Positions 1-6,331 of a DNA stretch of 64,000 bases are shown piece after piece. The stretch spans positions 1-64,000 of the forward strand of contig CAXTYC010000018.1 in assembly GCA_964248365.1 (NCBI GenBank), given 5' to 3'. This stretch comes from an uncultured Chroococcidiopsis sp. GTDB lineage: Bacteria; Cyanobacteriota; Cyanobacteriia; Cyanobacteriales; Chroococcidiopsidaceae. Position 1 is the stretch's first letter. Each line of letters begins with the position of its first letter. Position numbers and translations under genes: made by a program. The notes below the pieces were generated by a model. That model was not told the DNA's origin. It did not search any database and saw only the letters and a program-made list of their open reading frames with translations.

Positions 1-418
1 GTTCCGTCCAAGTTTCCTCCTTGAGTGTATCTTATTCAATCAAGAATCGCTGTATGGCATCATGACAGCTTCTTCCAGGTCTAAAACCATAAGAATTTGC
101 CTCGAATTTGGATTCCCATTCTGGCTCTATAGCCATCTTGACAAGTCCCTGCAATGCTCTGTCTTTTATCGTGGGTATCCCAAGTGGACGTTTTTCACCA
201 TTAGGTTTAGGTATCCAAACCCTTCGGGTTGGAGTCGCTTTATCTTTGATTTCTAAGCATCCTGTAAGCTCTGTTCTGGCTGTTGGGGTAAGCGACTTTA
301 AGCCATCTATCCCAGCCGTGTTTTTGCCTTGATTGTCTTGAGTTACCCGACGAACGGCTATGGACTTTGCAGCCCATGACTTGACTAGCAATTTTTGGAG
401 TCTACGAACTGTTCTGAC

Positions 419-1561
419 CTTAGTACAGGACAAAACCTTGAAAAAATAGATTAGGAAAGGGTTTCATAGAAATTGCGAATAAACCATGATGAAACCCTGT
501 GGATCAGATTACCTTACTACGACAAAGCTTGCAGCCTCACTTAGGCTGGCATCGAGCACGGCTTACTTTTGTGTCAATGTTCCTAATTGCTTTGTTTCGC
601 GTCAAAACAGTAAACCGCTCCTCAAGTGGCTACAGCATTTTCTGGACAAGCACAGACAAATTCATACTACAAACGATTACAGAGATTTTTGCGTGAATTT
701 GAACTCGATTATTACGTAATTGCCAAGTTGGTTGTGGCACTAATGGATATTCCCGAACCTTGGGTTCTGAGTATTGATCGTACACAATGGCAATTTGGTA
801 AAGTCACCTTCAACATCCTGGTCTTGGGCATTGTTCACCAAGGTGTTGCTTTTCCTATATTATGGTGGATGCTGGACAAAAAAGGTAATTCTAACACTAG
901 AGAACGGATTGATTTGTTAGAAGAGTTTGTTACCTTGTTTCCCAAACGGCGGATTGCTTACCTAAGTGCCGACCGGGAGTTTTTGGGGCATGACTGGTTT
1001 GCTTATTTACTACTGCCACCACTGACTCAATTTCGGATAAGGATTCGTGAGAGCGAACGTTTAGGTGATGGGCGGCGCACACTCAAGGCTAGTATCCTGT
1101 TACAACATCTAAAACCGCACCAACAGCAAGTGCTAACCAAACGGCGACGGTTGTGGGGACGATGGCTCTATGTTGCCGCACTGCGCTTAGAAGACAACAG
1201 GTTATTAATTGTCGTCACCTCAAACTCACCTCATACAGCAATTAGTGATTATGCTATGCGTTGGGGCATCGAAACACTGTTTGGTTGTTTGAAGAGCCGA
1301 GGTTTTTGCTTGGAATCAACACATCTGCGCGATCCAGAACGCTTAAGTAAGGTGTTGGTTTTGTTAACGTTGGCGCTGTGTTGGGCGCATCGTACTGGCG
1401 AATGGTTAACCGAGCAAAAACCGCTCACCATCAAAAAGCATGGGCGAAAAGCCAAGAGCATTTTTCGTTATGGATTCGATCATCTGCGTCGAATTTTGCT
1501 CAACCTTGAGCAGCACTATACTGATTATCACAAGGTTCTACATTTTTTGTCCTGTACGTAG
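419..1561 (+). mobile_element. IS4-family insertion sequence (~1143 bp)
   Basis: Imperfect 17-bp terminal inverted repeats CTTAGTACAGGACAAAA / TTTTGTCCTGTACGTAG. TCTGAC is duplicated at 413-418 and 1564-1569. The element interrupts the RT ORF. Confidence 0.9.
499..1561 (+). pseudogene. IS4-family DDE transposase, frameshifted near 616-625
   Basis: The N-terminus (499-615, ..FRVKTVN) and the main body (626-1561) are in different frames. The body has SIDRTQW, LSADREF and the Y..RWGIETLFG.LK signature, and it ends FLSCT* inside the right inverted repeat. Confidence 0.85.
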
Positions 1562-2329
1562 TCTCTGACATCTCCACGACGTGACGCTTTGTAAATCCGC
1601 GTTTGCAGCTTGTGAACGTTCCTTTCTAGCTTTCGCCAGGGGATTTCATTCCATTTATACATCGGTTTGGTGTCCGTGTTCATAACTTATACACTGCTAC
1701 TTGTAGCTCTACATTCCCTTATCACCGTGAGTCCGTCAGCATATCTCCGCCATTACAGTAGAGCTTTTAGCTTTTGACTCAATCTTTCCCCTCTGTAACC
1801 TATACAAGATAGATATTTCGTCTTAGCTGACTACTCGATAATTGAGAGTGACACAGAGGTTACTTCGTTCCTCATAACCATTGATATGCTGCCTTAGAGT
1901 GATGCTATCTACCGGATGTATTGGGTGGATACTAAGCGGGTGATAACGAAAAACCCCACTACCCTGCATCTTGCTCTTTTGAGACTTCCAGTGTGACAGC
2001 CTTATTTCACTGGTTGATAGTGACGGTAGTTACGCATCTTCATTGTGTTACTCATATCAGCTTGCTCACGGGATACCATTTTAGGCTAATAGCATCTTTC
2101 CGCTTTTATTCCTGCTTCAAGGATTGATGGCTAGTTGCTACCTTGAGGAATATGCTTTCACCGAAGTATCTTCGGGACAGGACTTGTGTTTTCTAGGATA
2201 GTCACACTCACCTATAAGGTTATGAAGTTGTCATCTATTGAGGATTAAAGTGCGAACTCTACCCATGTGGGTTACTCAACAGAAGCCAGTTTTCCCCCGA
2301 TTGCTCGGTTTAAACTGAACGAATCCCAC

Positions 2330-3206
2330 TCGTTAACTATCCTACGTGATAGCTTATGCAGAAAATCTTCTTGGCAGAAGGTGATTTTCCTATGAACTCT
2401 AGCAACTTTCCTTCTAGATCTAATTCGATTATTAGAACCTTTTTGTTTTCTAGATAGCTGTTGCTGCTTGATTTTTAGATTTTTCTCATACTTGTTGAGT
2501 ATTCTAGGATTATCAAACTTAGAGCCGTCGCTGGTAATTGCGAAGTGGGTTAATCCCAAGTCTATGTTTATAGCTTTTCCATCTGCGTTTGCAAAAGGCA
2601 TATCTGTACCATCATCAAACAAAACAGAAGTAAAGTATTGATTAGCACAATTTCTGGAGACAGTTACAGTTTTAACCTTGCCCTCAATTGGTTTATGGAT
2701 AATGGCTTTGACTTCACCTATTTTGGGTAGGCTTAAGTAATTGTCTAATACTTTGACGTTTTGAGGATATTGGATTGACTGTCTACCATGCTTAGATTTG
2801 AAATTGGGATATTTAGCTCGTTTCTCAAAGAAGTTGTTAAAAGCTACACCCAAATTAAGACAAACTTGCTGCAAACATTGTGAATAAGTCAATGTTAACC
2901 AGTCATGCTCTTTCTTTAACTGTGGAATTAGCTTTTTAACATCATAGCCAGATAACCGAAGCAGAGCTTGAAAAAATGTAGCGGTCCTTGTTTTGAGTTT
3001 ATCTGTTGGCAGCATGGGCGATCTGTTATGAAAGACCGCTTCATTTTTTGGTCGCTAAATTGGTTGCCGAGTCCAGTCTCGTTATACGTTTGGTTCATCA
3101 AGTTAAGAAAGTGATTCCAAAGCCATCGGCAATTACCGAAAGATTGTTGCAGTAATTGCTGTTGTTGGCTATCTGGATACAGTCTTATCTTGACGACCTT
3201 TAACAT
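2330..3206 (-). pseudogene. tnpB: IS200/IS605-family TnpB (RNA-guided nuclease family), interrupted by a mini-element and a group II intron
   Basis: MLKVVKIRLYP..FGNCRWLWN HTH-OrfB N-terminus, YPNFKSKHGRQS, RuvC-I IDLGLTHF and FLHKLSRRIVNE. The frame is broken at ~2957-3066, and the gene is cut at 2330 just before the RuvC-II glutamate. Confidence 0.9.
2955..3070. repeat. ~115-bp hairpin mini-element (MITE-like), copy 1, inside tnpB
   Basis: Similar to 6215-6331. Internal inverted repeat AAAAAATG(T)AGCGGTC..GACCGCT(T)CATTTTTT. Removing ~110 nt restores the tnpB frame. Confidence 0.8.
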
Positions 3207-3414
3207 TAGAGCAAAAAGAATTTACTATAAATTGGTATAGCATAAAATTTGTTCGTTTCCGACCTACCCTCTTCCCTCGCAAAGCGAGGGAAAAGGATTG
3301 TCGTCAACTCACCCGCCATTCATCTGATCACTCTCCTTCGGGTGAGTGAGAGGCTTGTGTCCCCGTAGCTCGTAGTTCGTTTTGGAGTAGGGGAAATACC
3401 AGTTACCAACTACC

Positions 3415-3673
3415 GTACGCGCGGGTTTATCAAACATACTTGTAAACCTCCAGTACGGGCGGGTTGATCAGACATACTTGTGAGGCGCAAGATAACTCAT
3501 TTAAAGTGCGCCCCTACTTGATTTAAAGAGCGCCCCTACCAACTACCGTACGCGCGGGTTTATCAGATATACTTGTGAACAAGCGGAAAGTGGGGGTGTT
3601 TTTAGAGAGGGGGAAACCCCCTCTCCCCCAACTTTTCAAGAGAACAAATAACTCGTTTAAAGTGCGTCCCTAC
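3415..3673. repeat. Cluster of REP-like GTACG(G/C)GCGGGTT..AAAGTGCGCCCCTAC units
   Basis: Several partial or complete units of a ~65-bp motif. A further copy lies at 46589-46653. Confidence 0.75.
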
Positions 3674-3720
3674 CAATTACCCATTACCAATTACCGCTTT
3701 GAACGCAAGTTAGTATAAAT

Positions 3721-6045
3721 TTACTCCTCCTCATCATCATCATCAAAATAGGAATCCGGCTCGTCGCTTAAGTCATCTTCCAGAGGCGAGTTGTAATCTG
3801 TCTGTTGGATATGGGTTGGTTGTTCGCCGTTAACTGTTACTAGGTCAATTTGTTGGCGGTAATAATCAACACTTTTAACTTGGACAGATACGCGATCGCC
3901 TAGTCGATAGCTCGCACGATTTTTACGTCCAAACAGAGCTTGTTGTCTAGCTCGATACTCATACCAATCGTCTTTGAGCGAACTAACGTGTACCAGTCCT
4001 TCGACTCGTAGCAGCCTACCTTTAGCATCTGGTACTTCAATTTCGACAAAGAACCCGTAAGACTGTACACCCGTGATAATACCAGAGAAAACATCGCCGA
4101 TGCGCTGTTTCATTAGCTGAGCTTTTTGCAGCCCTAGCAAATCATCTTCGGCATCATTTACTTCCTTTTCCCGCTCCTGAAACTGGACAATTACCCCAGT
4201 TAACCCAGTTTCCAGTTCTTGCTGGACTTCTGGAGGTAAAACGTTCCAAGTAGTTTTGCCATGAGCGGAGCTATGGTGTAGATTCACACTTTCTTTGGCG
4301 CGGGTGGTACGGCGATCGCGTCCCACATCAAACAAGATATGTATTACTCTTTGCAACAGCAAATCTGCATAACGCCGTAAGGGAGCATGAGAGTGGGTAT
4401 AACCTGGGAGAGCTAGACTAAAGTGAGATTGAAAAGCAGTGCTGTAAACACTAGGCTTGAGCGTCGCTTGTAGCAAATATGTAAGTACTTGCTCAGATGC
4501 AGGCGTTGCGGCGAATTGCGAGGTAAATCGTTGGAAGTCTGCTGGTTGAACTACATCTTCTTGATCCAGTCGCAGTTCAACACCTAAATTGCTTGCCAAT
4601 TTGATCATTTCCTGCACATCTTCCACATCAGGAGCAGGTTGAACTCGATAAATGGCGGGAATACCAAGGGCGTGTAAGTGGCTTGCTACTACTTGATTTG
4701 AGACAATAATCAACTCACTCAACAGCGATGTGAGCGGGGATTCTGAAGTCGTGTGCGCCCCTATCGCCCCCTCGTCATAGTAGGAATAGGAGCGTGGTAC
4801 TTTGAGGGCAAAGCTACCCCTAGCTAAGCGCTGTGCTTGTAGTGCTTGACTCAAGAGTGATAATTGCTCTAGCTTCTCAACCGTAGAGGCTGTTAATCCC
4901 AGGTCAACTTCTGGCTGACCGCTCAAAATCGCTCCTACTGCTTGTTCGCCGATCTCGTGGTCAACTTGAATTACTGTAGGTTGAATTTCAAACTCTACTA
5001 TTTGTCCACTAGCTGCATCTAAAGTTAGTAGTACAGACAGCGCCATGCGATCGCTACCTGGTACTAATGAGCAACGCGAGGAAACAGCTTCTGGAAAAAG
5101 GGGTACTACTTTTTCACCTAAATAGACACAGCTACCACGCTTAAAACTTTCTCGGTCAAGCGGCGTATCTGCTTCTACGTAGTAGGCGACATCACTCGTG
5201 TGAACTCCTAGCTGCCATTGTCCGGCGGCGGTTTTTTCTAGGGTGAAAGCATTTTCGACGTGCTGATCTGACGAATTGAAACTTAGGGTAAGTAGCGATC
5301 GCAAATCGACCCGCTTTTTTATTTCCTTCTTAGTGATTTGACTGGGTAAACCTGCCGCCGCTTCTAGGACATGAGGTGGGAAAGCGCGGGGCAAGTTATG
5401 CTTACAAGATACAAGTTCTACATCTGAAGCGGCTTCGGCATCACTACCTAAAATTTGTACTACCCTTCCCAACGGGGGGTATTGTGCCAGTGGGTAGCGC
5501 TGGATTTCCACATGGACTAAGTGATCGATTGCTTCTGCTAAGGTATGACCATTTGCCAAAAGGTCAATTTCAAATAGCAGTCGGTCATCTAGGGGAACAG
5601 CCCGAAAGTGGGTGTTTACTTGTTTGATCCGAGCGAGTAAACTTTGATTAGCGCGTTCTAGAATTAATTCAACTTCTCCTTCTGGACTACGGCGACGACT
5701 ACCTTCTTTGGTAAGTTTGACCAAAACGCGATCGCCGTTCCAAGCTGAATTCAAATGGCTTTCACGGATATATATATCTTCCGATCCCTCTACTTCCTGA
5801 ATCGCAAAGCAAAAACCTTTGCTAGAACAGCGAAGTTTGGCTTCGATTACCCCTTCTTCTCTTACTCGGCGATACTTGCCGTGTTCTTTGACCAAAATGC
5901 CAATTTTTTCTAGTACGTCCAAGGCAATATATAGTTTTCTTAGACTCAGTTCGTCCTGGTAATCCAGTTTCTTTTCTAGTACCTTGGCAGCAACCAATTT
6001 GTCACTTGTAAAATTAGCAAGCAGTGTAGCGATTGAAAACTCCAT
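3721..6045 (-). CDS. Ribonuclease R/II family exoribonuclease (Zam-like)
   Basis: Cold-shock/OB N-terminus (SSKGFCFAI), RNB domain (YTHSHAPLRRYADLLLQR), C-terminal S1 domain (GVQSYGFFVE..EGLVHVSSL), acidic tail. Confidence 0.9.
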   Translation of the reverse strand: MEFSIATLLANFTSDKLVAAKVLEKKLDYQDELSLRKLYIALDVLEKIGILVKEHGKYRRVREEGVIEAKLRCSSKGFCFAIQEVEGSEDIYIRESHLNSAWNGDRVLVKLTKEGSRRRSPEGEVELILERANQSLLARIKQVNTHFRAVPLDDRLLFEIDLLANGHTLAEAIDHLVHVEIQRYPLAQYPPLGRVVQILGSDAEAASDVELVSCKHNLPRAFPPHVLEAAAGLPSQITKKEIKKRVDLRSLLTLSFNSSDQHVENAFTLEKTAAGQWQLGVHTSDVAYYVEADTPLDRESFKRGSCVYLGEKVVPLFPEAVSSRCSLVPGSDRMALSVLLTLDAASGQIVEFEIQPTVIQVDHEIGEQAVGAILSGQPEVDLGLTASTVEKLEQLSLLSQALQAQRLARGSFALKVPRSYSYYDEGAIGAHTTSESPLTSLLSELIIVSNQVVASHLHALGIPAIYRVQPAPDVEDVQEMIKLASNLGVELRLDQEDVVQPADFQRFTSQFAATPASEQVLTYLLQATLKPSVYSTAFQSHFSLALPGYTHSHAPLRRYADLLLQRVIHILFDVGRDRRTTRAKESVNLHHSSAHGKTTWNVLPPEVQQELETGLTGVIVQFQEREKEVNDAEDDLLGLQKAQLMKQRIGDVFSGIITGVQSYGFFVEIEVPDAKGRLLRVEGLVHVSSLKDDWYEYRARQQALFGRKNRASYRLGDRVSVQVKSVDYYRQQIDLVTVNGEQPTHIQQTDYNSPLEDDLSDEPDSYFDDDDEEE

Positions 6046-6214: not shown

Positions 6215-6331
6215 ACCGAGGCAGAGCTTGAAAAAATGACGGCAGCCGCTGTGTTTAAGTTTATCTGTTGGCAACACTCGTTATCTGTTATGAAGGCTGC
6301 CGTCATTTTTTTGTCGCCAAATTAGTCACCG
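6215..6331. repeat. ~115-bp hairpin mini-element, copy 2, upstream of the RNase R-family gene
   Basis: Perfect 17-bp inverted repeat AAAAAATGACGGCAGCC / GGCTGCCGTCATTTTTT. Shares ACCGARGCAGAGCTTGAAAAAATG and the GTCGCYAAAT end with 2955-3070. Confidence 0.8.

What the first reader, a model, noticed from the sequence alone, without database searches (positions are those of the whole stretch)
1944..2341. Group II intron whose EBS1/EBS2 match a tnpB site next to RuvC-II at 12/12 nt
Seen: tnpB reads ..HKLSRRIVN-GA and then switches to GTGGGATTCGTTC, a variant of the group II 5' GUGCG end. The last 12 exon nt GATAGT|TAACGA are exactly complementary to two intron segments in the expected order: ACUAUC (2021-2016), just before a hairpin, and UCGUUA (1949-1944), in the loop of GGGU..ACCC. 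Known: EBS-IBS pairing determines retrohoming specificity. Inference: this intron is adapted to home into IS200/IS605 tnpB genes, a retroelement parasitising an RNA-guided nuclease gene. TnpB activity would then depend on splicing. This is the reverse of the IStron arrangement.
Basis: partly seen in the sequence, partly recalled or inferred. Interest (0 to 1): 0.7.

Follow-up and report, generated by a model that had tools for sequence, protein, structure and literature searches.

The report
Dead mobile intron inside tnpB gene
A self-splicing mobile intron really did insert at its own recognition site inside a transposon's RNA-guided nuclease gene (tnpB) in this cyanobacterium, but both are now broken relics, and introns that target tnpB have been reported before.

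Summary
A group IIB intron starts at 2329 (minus strand) inside an IS200/IS605 tnpB. The window begins at a contig end. The intron's 3' part lies on contig C12, where tnpB resumes in frame seven codons before the RuvC-II glutamate. A public run holds a ~94% identical intron lacking the window's two IS insertions, at the same site in a different tnpB paralogue, which supports site-specific homing. This copy is dead: insertion sequences break the RT gene and domain V, and tnpB is frameshifted and 3'-truncated, so nothing here depends on splicing. Perfect EBS pairing does not mark tnpB hosts (5/49 versus 3/71). Relatives sit in tnpB in 36 of 66 cases, at many sites (18/29 genomes versus 8/29 in a control lineage). 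Kapitonov 2016 (Suppl. Fig. S9) already reported group II introns targeting tnpB, and this scan noted it before on other DNA. Verdict: new member of a known kind.

The parts
3207..3324 (-). Putative left-end and leader region of a non-autonomous IS200/IS605 element; no tnpA ORF beside it
   Evidence: Block at about 3324-3299 aligns with the sequence upstream of an intact tnpB relative, L168; strong hairpins; Y1 tnpA matches lie on other contigs. End not mapped precisely.
2330..3206 (-). tnpB 5' exon (HTH, WED, RuvC-I Asp codon at 2562-2560), ending ..HKLSRRIVN + GA
   Evidence: PF12323 E 1.9e-16 and PF01385 E 1.3e-20; last 600 nt 63-80% identical to 27 intact tnpB loci
2956..3065 (-). 110-nt dispersed repeat inserted in tnpB, shifting its frame
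   Evidence: Absent from a near-identical allele in run X1 (joint 2955-3066) and from L168; 13 further partial matches in the genome, one at window 6216-6326
2330..2342 (-). Target site in the 5' exon: IBS2a G2342, IBS2 2341-2337, IBS1 2335-2330
   Evidence: Sequence; covariation; all 12 scored positions Watson-Crick
1684..2329 (-). Group IIB intron 5' end and ribozyme domains I to start of IV
   Evidence: About 70% identity to relatives over this span; alignment. No Rfam hit in the window because domain V is not in it.
2016..2022 (-). EBS2a (2022) and EBS2 (2020-2016)
   Evidence: Covariation z 6.6-8.0; EBS2a as defined in PMC8643678
1944..1949 (-). EBS1 in the loop of the d3 hairpin
   Evidence: Covariation z 5.8-7.9; fold
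1907..1907 (-). EBS3 (U), predicts A at +1 of the 3' exon
   Evidence: 45 of 55 introns pair here, z 8.4; the C12 exon starts with A
1564..1683 (-). Intron-encoded RT, first 40 codons
   Evidence: 72% identical to the L023 protein, residues 1-40
413..1563 (+). IS4-type insertion sequence (transposase 626-1561) splitting the RT gene
   Evidence: PF01609 E 5.6e-12; X3 and X8 contigs skip these 1151 nt with 6 ambiguous letters, consistent with a target duplication
53..412 (-). Intron-encoded RT continued, to ..HDAI
   Evidence: RVT_N and RVT_1; best solved relative 6me0_C, E 2e-25
1..52 (-). End of a second IS that cuts the RT gene and the contig (IS630-like; family label recalled from the start of the neighbouring ORF in the C37 copy)
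   Evidence: 91% match to C37:41671-41618; in X3 the RT frame continues at 53 instead. The rest of the element is on G000:C12 (L001): maturase/HNH remnant about 1304-1960, D5 split at 1996-4190, D6 and 3' end at 4259, tnpB 3' exon from 4260 to about 4535.

Best explanation
A cyanobacterial group IIB retro-intron (RT-maturase-HNH type) inserted by ordinary retrohoming into a conserved motif of a non-autonomous IS200/IS605 tnpB, in sense orientation, seven codons before the RuvC-II glutamate. Shown: boundaries, EBS1/2/2a/3 pairing, in-frame exons, and a close relative at the same site in a different paralogue. Inferred: reverse splicing into DNA and reverse transcription as for other IIB introns; while intact, splicing would have restored TnpB. 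It belongs to an intron lineage that often lives in tnpB genes but keeps changing its EBS and its site. The likely reason (inferred) is that tnpB genes are multicopy, conserved at catalytic motifs and dispensable. This copy has since decayed into a sink for other insertion sequences and can neither splice, move nor yield TnpB.
For: Junction and in-frame exons. EBS assignments by covariation, including EBS3 predicting the C12 base. Both tnpB halves match the same subfamily to a similar degree (best 81% and 79.5%; profile correlation 0.61, within the -0.14 to 0.84 range of 27 intact genes). C12 holds the only matching TnpB C-terminus among 5 in the genome. Run X3 contig 16 (2946 nt) covers 53-412 and 1564-2370 at about 94-95% identity without the IS4, crosses the junction without a gap there, and then continues in a diverged tnpB. 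Run X1 contig 3 matches tnpB 2330-2642 with 6 differences and leaves exactly at 2330. Empty 14-nt targets: 34 matches in 23 of 250 genomes against 8 for the reversed pattern; 28 of 30 examined are tnpB. Relatives in tnpB: 36 of 66. Lesions.
Against: The C18-C12 join is inferred and not bridged by any sequence; RT residues about 162-381 are missing from the assembly. No occupied same-site copy in 400 other genomes, and all 9 metagenome pattern hits were chance. The EBS letters of the X3 copy and the 362 unmatched letters of the X1 contig were not displayed. The protein tree put the window's degenerate RT on a long branch outside the tnpB-rich clade, unlike the RNA trees. No splicing or mobility data.
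Confidence: 0.85

Rival explanations
1. A working splicing-gated TnpB: the intron controls nuclease output at this locus.
For: Sense orientation, perfect EBS/IBS pairing and in-frame exons. Intact-looking examples exist elsewhere: L090 (RT 604 aa with YADD, ligated TnpB frame 392 aa) and L100 (RT 600 aa, stop-free ligated frame 482 aa).
Against: Here D5 is interrupted by 2.2 kb of IS sequence, the RT gene is broken by three ISs, a frameshift and a stop, tnpB is frameshifted, and its tail is replaced just after the RuvC-III motif. Many relatives' hosts are broken too.
Confidence: 0.03
2. A one-off ectopic insertion (retrotransposition) into tnpB, with the EBS later fitted to the site and no tnpB preference.
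For: Single copy in the genome and no perfect empty target there; same site absent from 400 genomes; 19 of 44 clade members are outside tnpB.
Against: Same site in a different paralogue in X3; EBS2a, needed for mobility but not splicing (PMC8643678), is matched; 36 of 66 relatives are in tnpB.
Confidence: 0.08
3. The C18 and C12 pieces are halves of two separate intron copies in two tnpB paralogues, each missing its other half from the assembly.
For: No physical bridge; the 3' exon differs from the usual NQV at two residues next to the junction; the best-matching relatives differ between halves.
Against: Exactly one orphan 5' half and one orphan 3' half, complementary and without overlap; similar identity levels.
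Confidence: 0.1

Closest known systems
RT-maturase-HNH group II introns in TnpB of IS605-1_CC and IS605B-1_CC, Coleofasciculus chthonoplastes (Kapitonov et al. 2016, PMC4810608, main text and Suppl. Fig. S9; passages seen)
   Same: Cyanobacterial ~2.5-kb intron, sense orientation, site-specific, same site in divergent tnpB genes; the authors add that many other examples occur at different positions of TnpB (data not shown).
   Different: Their site is near TnpB residue 50; this one is just before RuvC-II and the copy is a multiply disrupted relic. They gave no EBS analysis or census in the passages I saw.
TeI3 family F4 introns in ISEL1 (IS200 family) of Thermosynechococcus elongatus (Mohr et al. 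2010, PMC2882425; passages seen)
   Same: Retargeting by EBS divergence and preference for insertion elements and other introns; TeI4-type RT is the best solved relative (6me0_C).
   Different: TeI3 F4 are ORF-less; the passage does not say which ISEL1 gene is hit.
Subgroup IIB1/IIB2 RT-encoding introns with EBS2a-IBS2a (PMC8643678; passages seen)
   Same: EBS1, 5-bp EBS2, EBS2a two positions upstream of EBS2, EBS3.
   Different: Here IBS2a is at -13 (29 of 44 clade members fit that register best), which the paper notes for chloroplast IIB1 introns, not the usual -14.
IStrons (group I intron + IS605/IS607; bioRxiv 10.1101/2023.11.20.567912; passages seen)
   Same: An intron and TnpB in one locus, with splicing bearing on TnpB function.
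   Different: In IStrons a group I intron spans the whole transposon and moves as DNA. Here an independent group II retroelement interrupts the tnpB reading frame.

Membership tests
Group IIB intron | 5' GUGYG and 3' AY ends | tested here: met
   5' GTGGG (one change from relatives' GTGCG) at 2329; 3' end ..AT at C12:4259
Group IIB intron | EBS1/EBS2/EBS3 (and EBS2a) pairing with the exons | tested here: met
   Covariation in 80 introns; 12 of 12 scored positions Watson-Crick and EBS3 matched
Group IIB intron | Domain V with catalytic triad and domain VI | tested here: met
   Present on C12 but split by an IS with a 3-nt duplication; without the IS it is 78 nt like relatives and folds as two hairpins. 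Relatives score RF00029 57-58 bits, the broken piece only a weak D5 hit.
Group IIB intron | Intron-encoded RT-maturase(-HNH) | tested here: met
   RVT_N, RVT_1, GIIM and a weak HNH hit as fragments; middle missing
Group IIB intron | Assignment to IIB1 versus IIB2 / CL1 versus CL2 | not tested
   Only nearest solved RT and the EBS2a register
Active group II intron | Intact ribozyme core and RT frame | tested here: not met
Active group II intron | Splicing and retrohoming shown | not testable with these tools
   Only assembled contigs were available for the runs
IS200/IS605 TnpB | HTH, OrfB and TNB domains with RuvC D-E-D | tested here: met
   PF12323, PF01385, PF07282; D, E and D codons present across the two exons
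IS200/IS605 TnpB | Continuous frame, C-terminal tail, omega RNA and right end | tested here: not met
   110-nt insert; similarity to intact relatives stops just after the RuvC-III motif
IStron | Group I ribozyme whose ends coincide with the transposon ends | tested here: not met
   No group I Rfam hit; the intron is group II and lies inside tnpB

The most novel reading that the evidence does not exclude
This intron marks a cyanobacterial IIB lineage specialised on tnpB as a gene family and not on one site. It keeps re-aiming its EBS at different conserved RuvC and zinc-finger motifs, rides on IS200/IS605 elements moved by TnpA without needing to splice, and in intact copies throttles the element's RNA-guided nuclease through splicing: a retroelement parasitising a homing-type transposon.
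Probability: 0.3. Interest if true: 0.55.

Novelty: new member of a known kind. Interest (0 to 1): 0.27.

Why it matters
As a locus it matters little: it is a relic. Its value is as a pointer. The census puts numbers on a statement left as 'data not shown' in 2016: more than half of this lineage's copies sit in tnpB, at many motif-coding sites, which bears on the proposal that the HNH of IscB/Cas9 came from such an intron. It also names intact-looking intron-in-tnpB loci (L090, L100, the X3 contig) where splicing-dependent TnpB activity could be tested.

Tried and rejected
Rfam on the window found nothing. Same-site pattern: 0 of 400 other genomes; 9 metagenome hits were all unrelated sequence. 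The 5' motif found nothing in viral contigs. Plasmid search gave only distant introns and intact tnpBs. The RT middle was not found on any contig. I tested whether non-tnpB clade members carry EBSs aimed at tnpB: most showed no enrichment (ratio about 1), only L036/L041, L010 and a few others 2-4-fold, on a panel chosen partly by the window's own motif, so this was dropped. The FastTree protein tree was not used for placement because the window's RT is partial, degenerate and reference-anchored. PMC7923331 was irrelevant; PMC7306698 gave only the general 'hiding in mobile elements' statement and no TnpB mention. Six literature searches listed no paper devoted to a census of group II introns in tnpB; the library lacks most subscription journals, and supplementary file 2 of PMC4810608 could not be searched.

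Full report
Observation. The window is the start of contig C18 of a cyanobacterial assembly (the organism group is inferred from its relatives). On the minus strand a tnpB gene (PF12323, PF01385) runs from 3206 to 2330 and is followed at 2329 by a group II intron 5' end. Both occur in order in 43 of 5000 shuffles, and at a plausible spacing in 9 of 5000. A blind scan of every domain I column against each exon position in 80 non-redundant related introns returned exactly window 1949-1944 for EBS1, 2020-2016 for EBS2, 2022 for the base just upstream of IBS2 and 1907 for the first base of the 3' exon. The 2022 signal is the EBS2a-IBS2a pair, reported as needed for mobility and not for splicing (PMC8643678, passages).

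The missing half. The RT gene starts at 1683, is split by an IS4-type element (413-1563), resumes at 412 and is cut at 53 by another IS end at the contig border. A search with another TnpB of the genome found an orphan C-terminus on C12. C12 begins with a DDE transposase element, then maturase and HNH remnants with a frameshift and a stop, then domain V split by an IS5-type element that itself holds an IS4-type one, then domain VI ending AT at 4259, then tnpB. The exons join in frame as IVNE|NSFICVENL, seven codons before the RuvC-II glutamate, and the first exon base is the A that EBS3 predicts. Both halves resemble the same tnpB subfamily to a similar degree, and there is one orphan of each kind among 5 TnpB C-termini in the genome. 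The join is not bridged, and RT residues about 162-381 are absent from the assembly.

State of the locus. It is dead on both counts. The intron lacks a continuous domain V and RT frame. tnpB carries a 110-nt dispersed repeat that shifts its frame (2956-3065), and its similarity to intact relatives stops just after the RuvC-III motif, so the tail, and with it the expected omega RNA and right end, is gone (their position is from general knowledge). The intron is single-copy and the genome has no perfect empty target.

Is the site a real homing site? The empty 14-nt target occurs 34 times in 23 of 250 other genomes (reversed pattern 8 times); 28 of the 30 loci examined are tnpB, none occupied. 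An occupied site was not found in 400 genomes, and the 9 metagenome hits were chance. Public runs did show it. In X3 one 2946-nt contig matches 53-412 and 1564-2370 at about 94-95%, lacks the IS4, continues the RT frame beyond 53, crosses the junction, and upstream of 2370 continues in a diverged tnpB frame. In X1 a contig matches tnpB 2330-2642 with 6 differences and departs exactly at 2330, and another lacks the 110-nt insert. I read these as an intact sister intron at the same site in another paralogue and an intron-less allele; the output did not show the X3 EBS letters or the X1 departing letters. Four of the nine listed runs were laid.

Does perfect pairing show tnpB adaptation? No. Of 131 aligned introns 120 could be scored (11 lacked exon or EBS1). 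Allowing one-base shifts, Watson-Crick pairs averaged 8.8 of 11 for 49 tnpB-hosted and 8.7 for 71 other introns, against 5.0 for mismatched pairs; perfect scores were 5 of 49 and 3 of 71 (Fisher p 0.27). The window is among the best matched, which suggests little drift since insertion.

Where do relatives sit? A 5'-end motif census of 400 genomes gave 67 matches in 39 genomes besides this one; 66 had a usable exon. 36 of 66 lie in a tnpB frame or its C-terminal tail: 30 by a TnpB profile built here, 2 by Pfam, 1 by its 3' exon, 3 by motif alone. Others lie in dnaB, an IS5 transposase, DUF2887, an integrase, other introns or unassigned sequence. Taking one match per genome for the 29 genomes for which the tool returned loci, 18 of 29 are in tnpB, against 8 of 29 (7 by profile or Pfam, 1 by motif; plus one RRXRR/IscB-like host) for a second intron lineage in the same genome set, of whose 114 matches I examined 30 (p 0.017). 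In the domain I tree the window falls in a 44-row clade (support 98/99) with 25 tnpB hosts, against 6 of 28 in another clade; kin are not independent, so these p values overstate. Inside the clade there are at least seven tnpB sites, the commonest just after the RuvC-III DRD.NAA motif and inside the RuvC-III aspartate codon; two more sites lie one and two codons from the window's. Capilliphycus salinus has three near-identical copies at one site in three different tnpB genes. The protein tree disagreed on the window's placement. I did not measure how much of these genomes tnpB occupies, so enrichment over abundance is inferred (5 TnpB C-termini in 5.6 Mb here).

Mechanism. Shown: boundaries, pairings, frame, decay, and repeated occupation of tnpB by relatives. 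Inferred: insertion by EBS-guided reverse splicing and reverse transcription; persistence because tnpB genes are multicopy, conserved at catalytic motifs and not needed for transposition (recalled), so the intron finds new targets at low cost and may travel with the IS. Splicing-dependent TnpB is a logical consequence for intact loci such as L090 and L100, untested, and not true of this copy.

What is known. Kapitonov et al. 2016 report group II RT-HNH introns in IS605 elements of cyanobacteria (main-text passages). Their Suppl. Fig. S9 is titled as TnpB being targeted by mobile group II introns, shows independent insertion at one site in divergent tnpB genes, and mentions many other positions as data not shown (supplement passages; file 2 not searchable). 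Mohr et al. 2010 describe EBS divergence and a TeI3 family in an IS200-type element (passages). Waldern et al. describe hiding in mobile elements generally (passages). IStrons are group I introns spanning a whole transposon (passages). Earlier notes of this scan describe similar cases in other genomes; they are unchecked and were seen after the papers.

Verdict. Real, well delimited, a new member of a known kind, and a relic. The part worth keeping is the lineage-level bias towards tnpB with shifting sites. Interest 0.27.

Noticed in passing
window 6216-6326 and 2956-3065: A 110-nt dispersed repeat with 13 further partial matches on other contigs and one more copy in the window; folds as a long hairpin; MITE-like.
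   Followed up: partly
G000 contigs C4, C7, C11, C12, C13, C19, C28, C32, C50, C67, C91, C95, C96: About 15 further group II intron-like 5' ends (a few may be chance) and several broken RT genes; C96 appears to hold an intron inside another intron's RT gene.
   Followed up: no
L001 (G000:C12) 57-4190: The intron relic has collected nested insertion sequences: an IS5-type element in domain V containing an IS4-type element, and another DDE element in the RT gene.
   Followed up: yes
L137/L188 and L189/L190 (G273:C1 about 1463534-1466164 and 3058785-3061415): Two identical-D1 introns in direct tandem inside tnpB, the second starting right after the first one's 3' end, at two loci.
   Followed up: partly
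L117, L178, L179 (G290): Three copies of a related intron at the same site in dnaB-like helicase genes.
   Followed up: no
L043/L044/L048, L066, L068, L099, L118, L139, L141, L176, L177: Introns inserted in the tnpB C-terminal tail, where the omega RNA is expected to overlap.
   Followed up: partly
L038 and L094: Introns inserted at or near the junction between a resolvase-type gene and tnpB (IS607-like).
   Followed up: no
L215 (G212:C11 about 74187): Intron of the control lineage inserted in an RRXRR (IscB-like) gene just after its first RuvC motif.
   Followed up: no
L074, L075, L087, L095, L097: A separate intron clade fixed at one site in class II ribonucleotide reductase genes across Nostoc, Calothrix and Microseira.
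   Followed up: no
L080 and L130: Clade members inserted inside another group II intron (domain I, and the RT gene).
   Followed up: no
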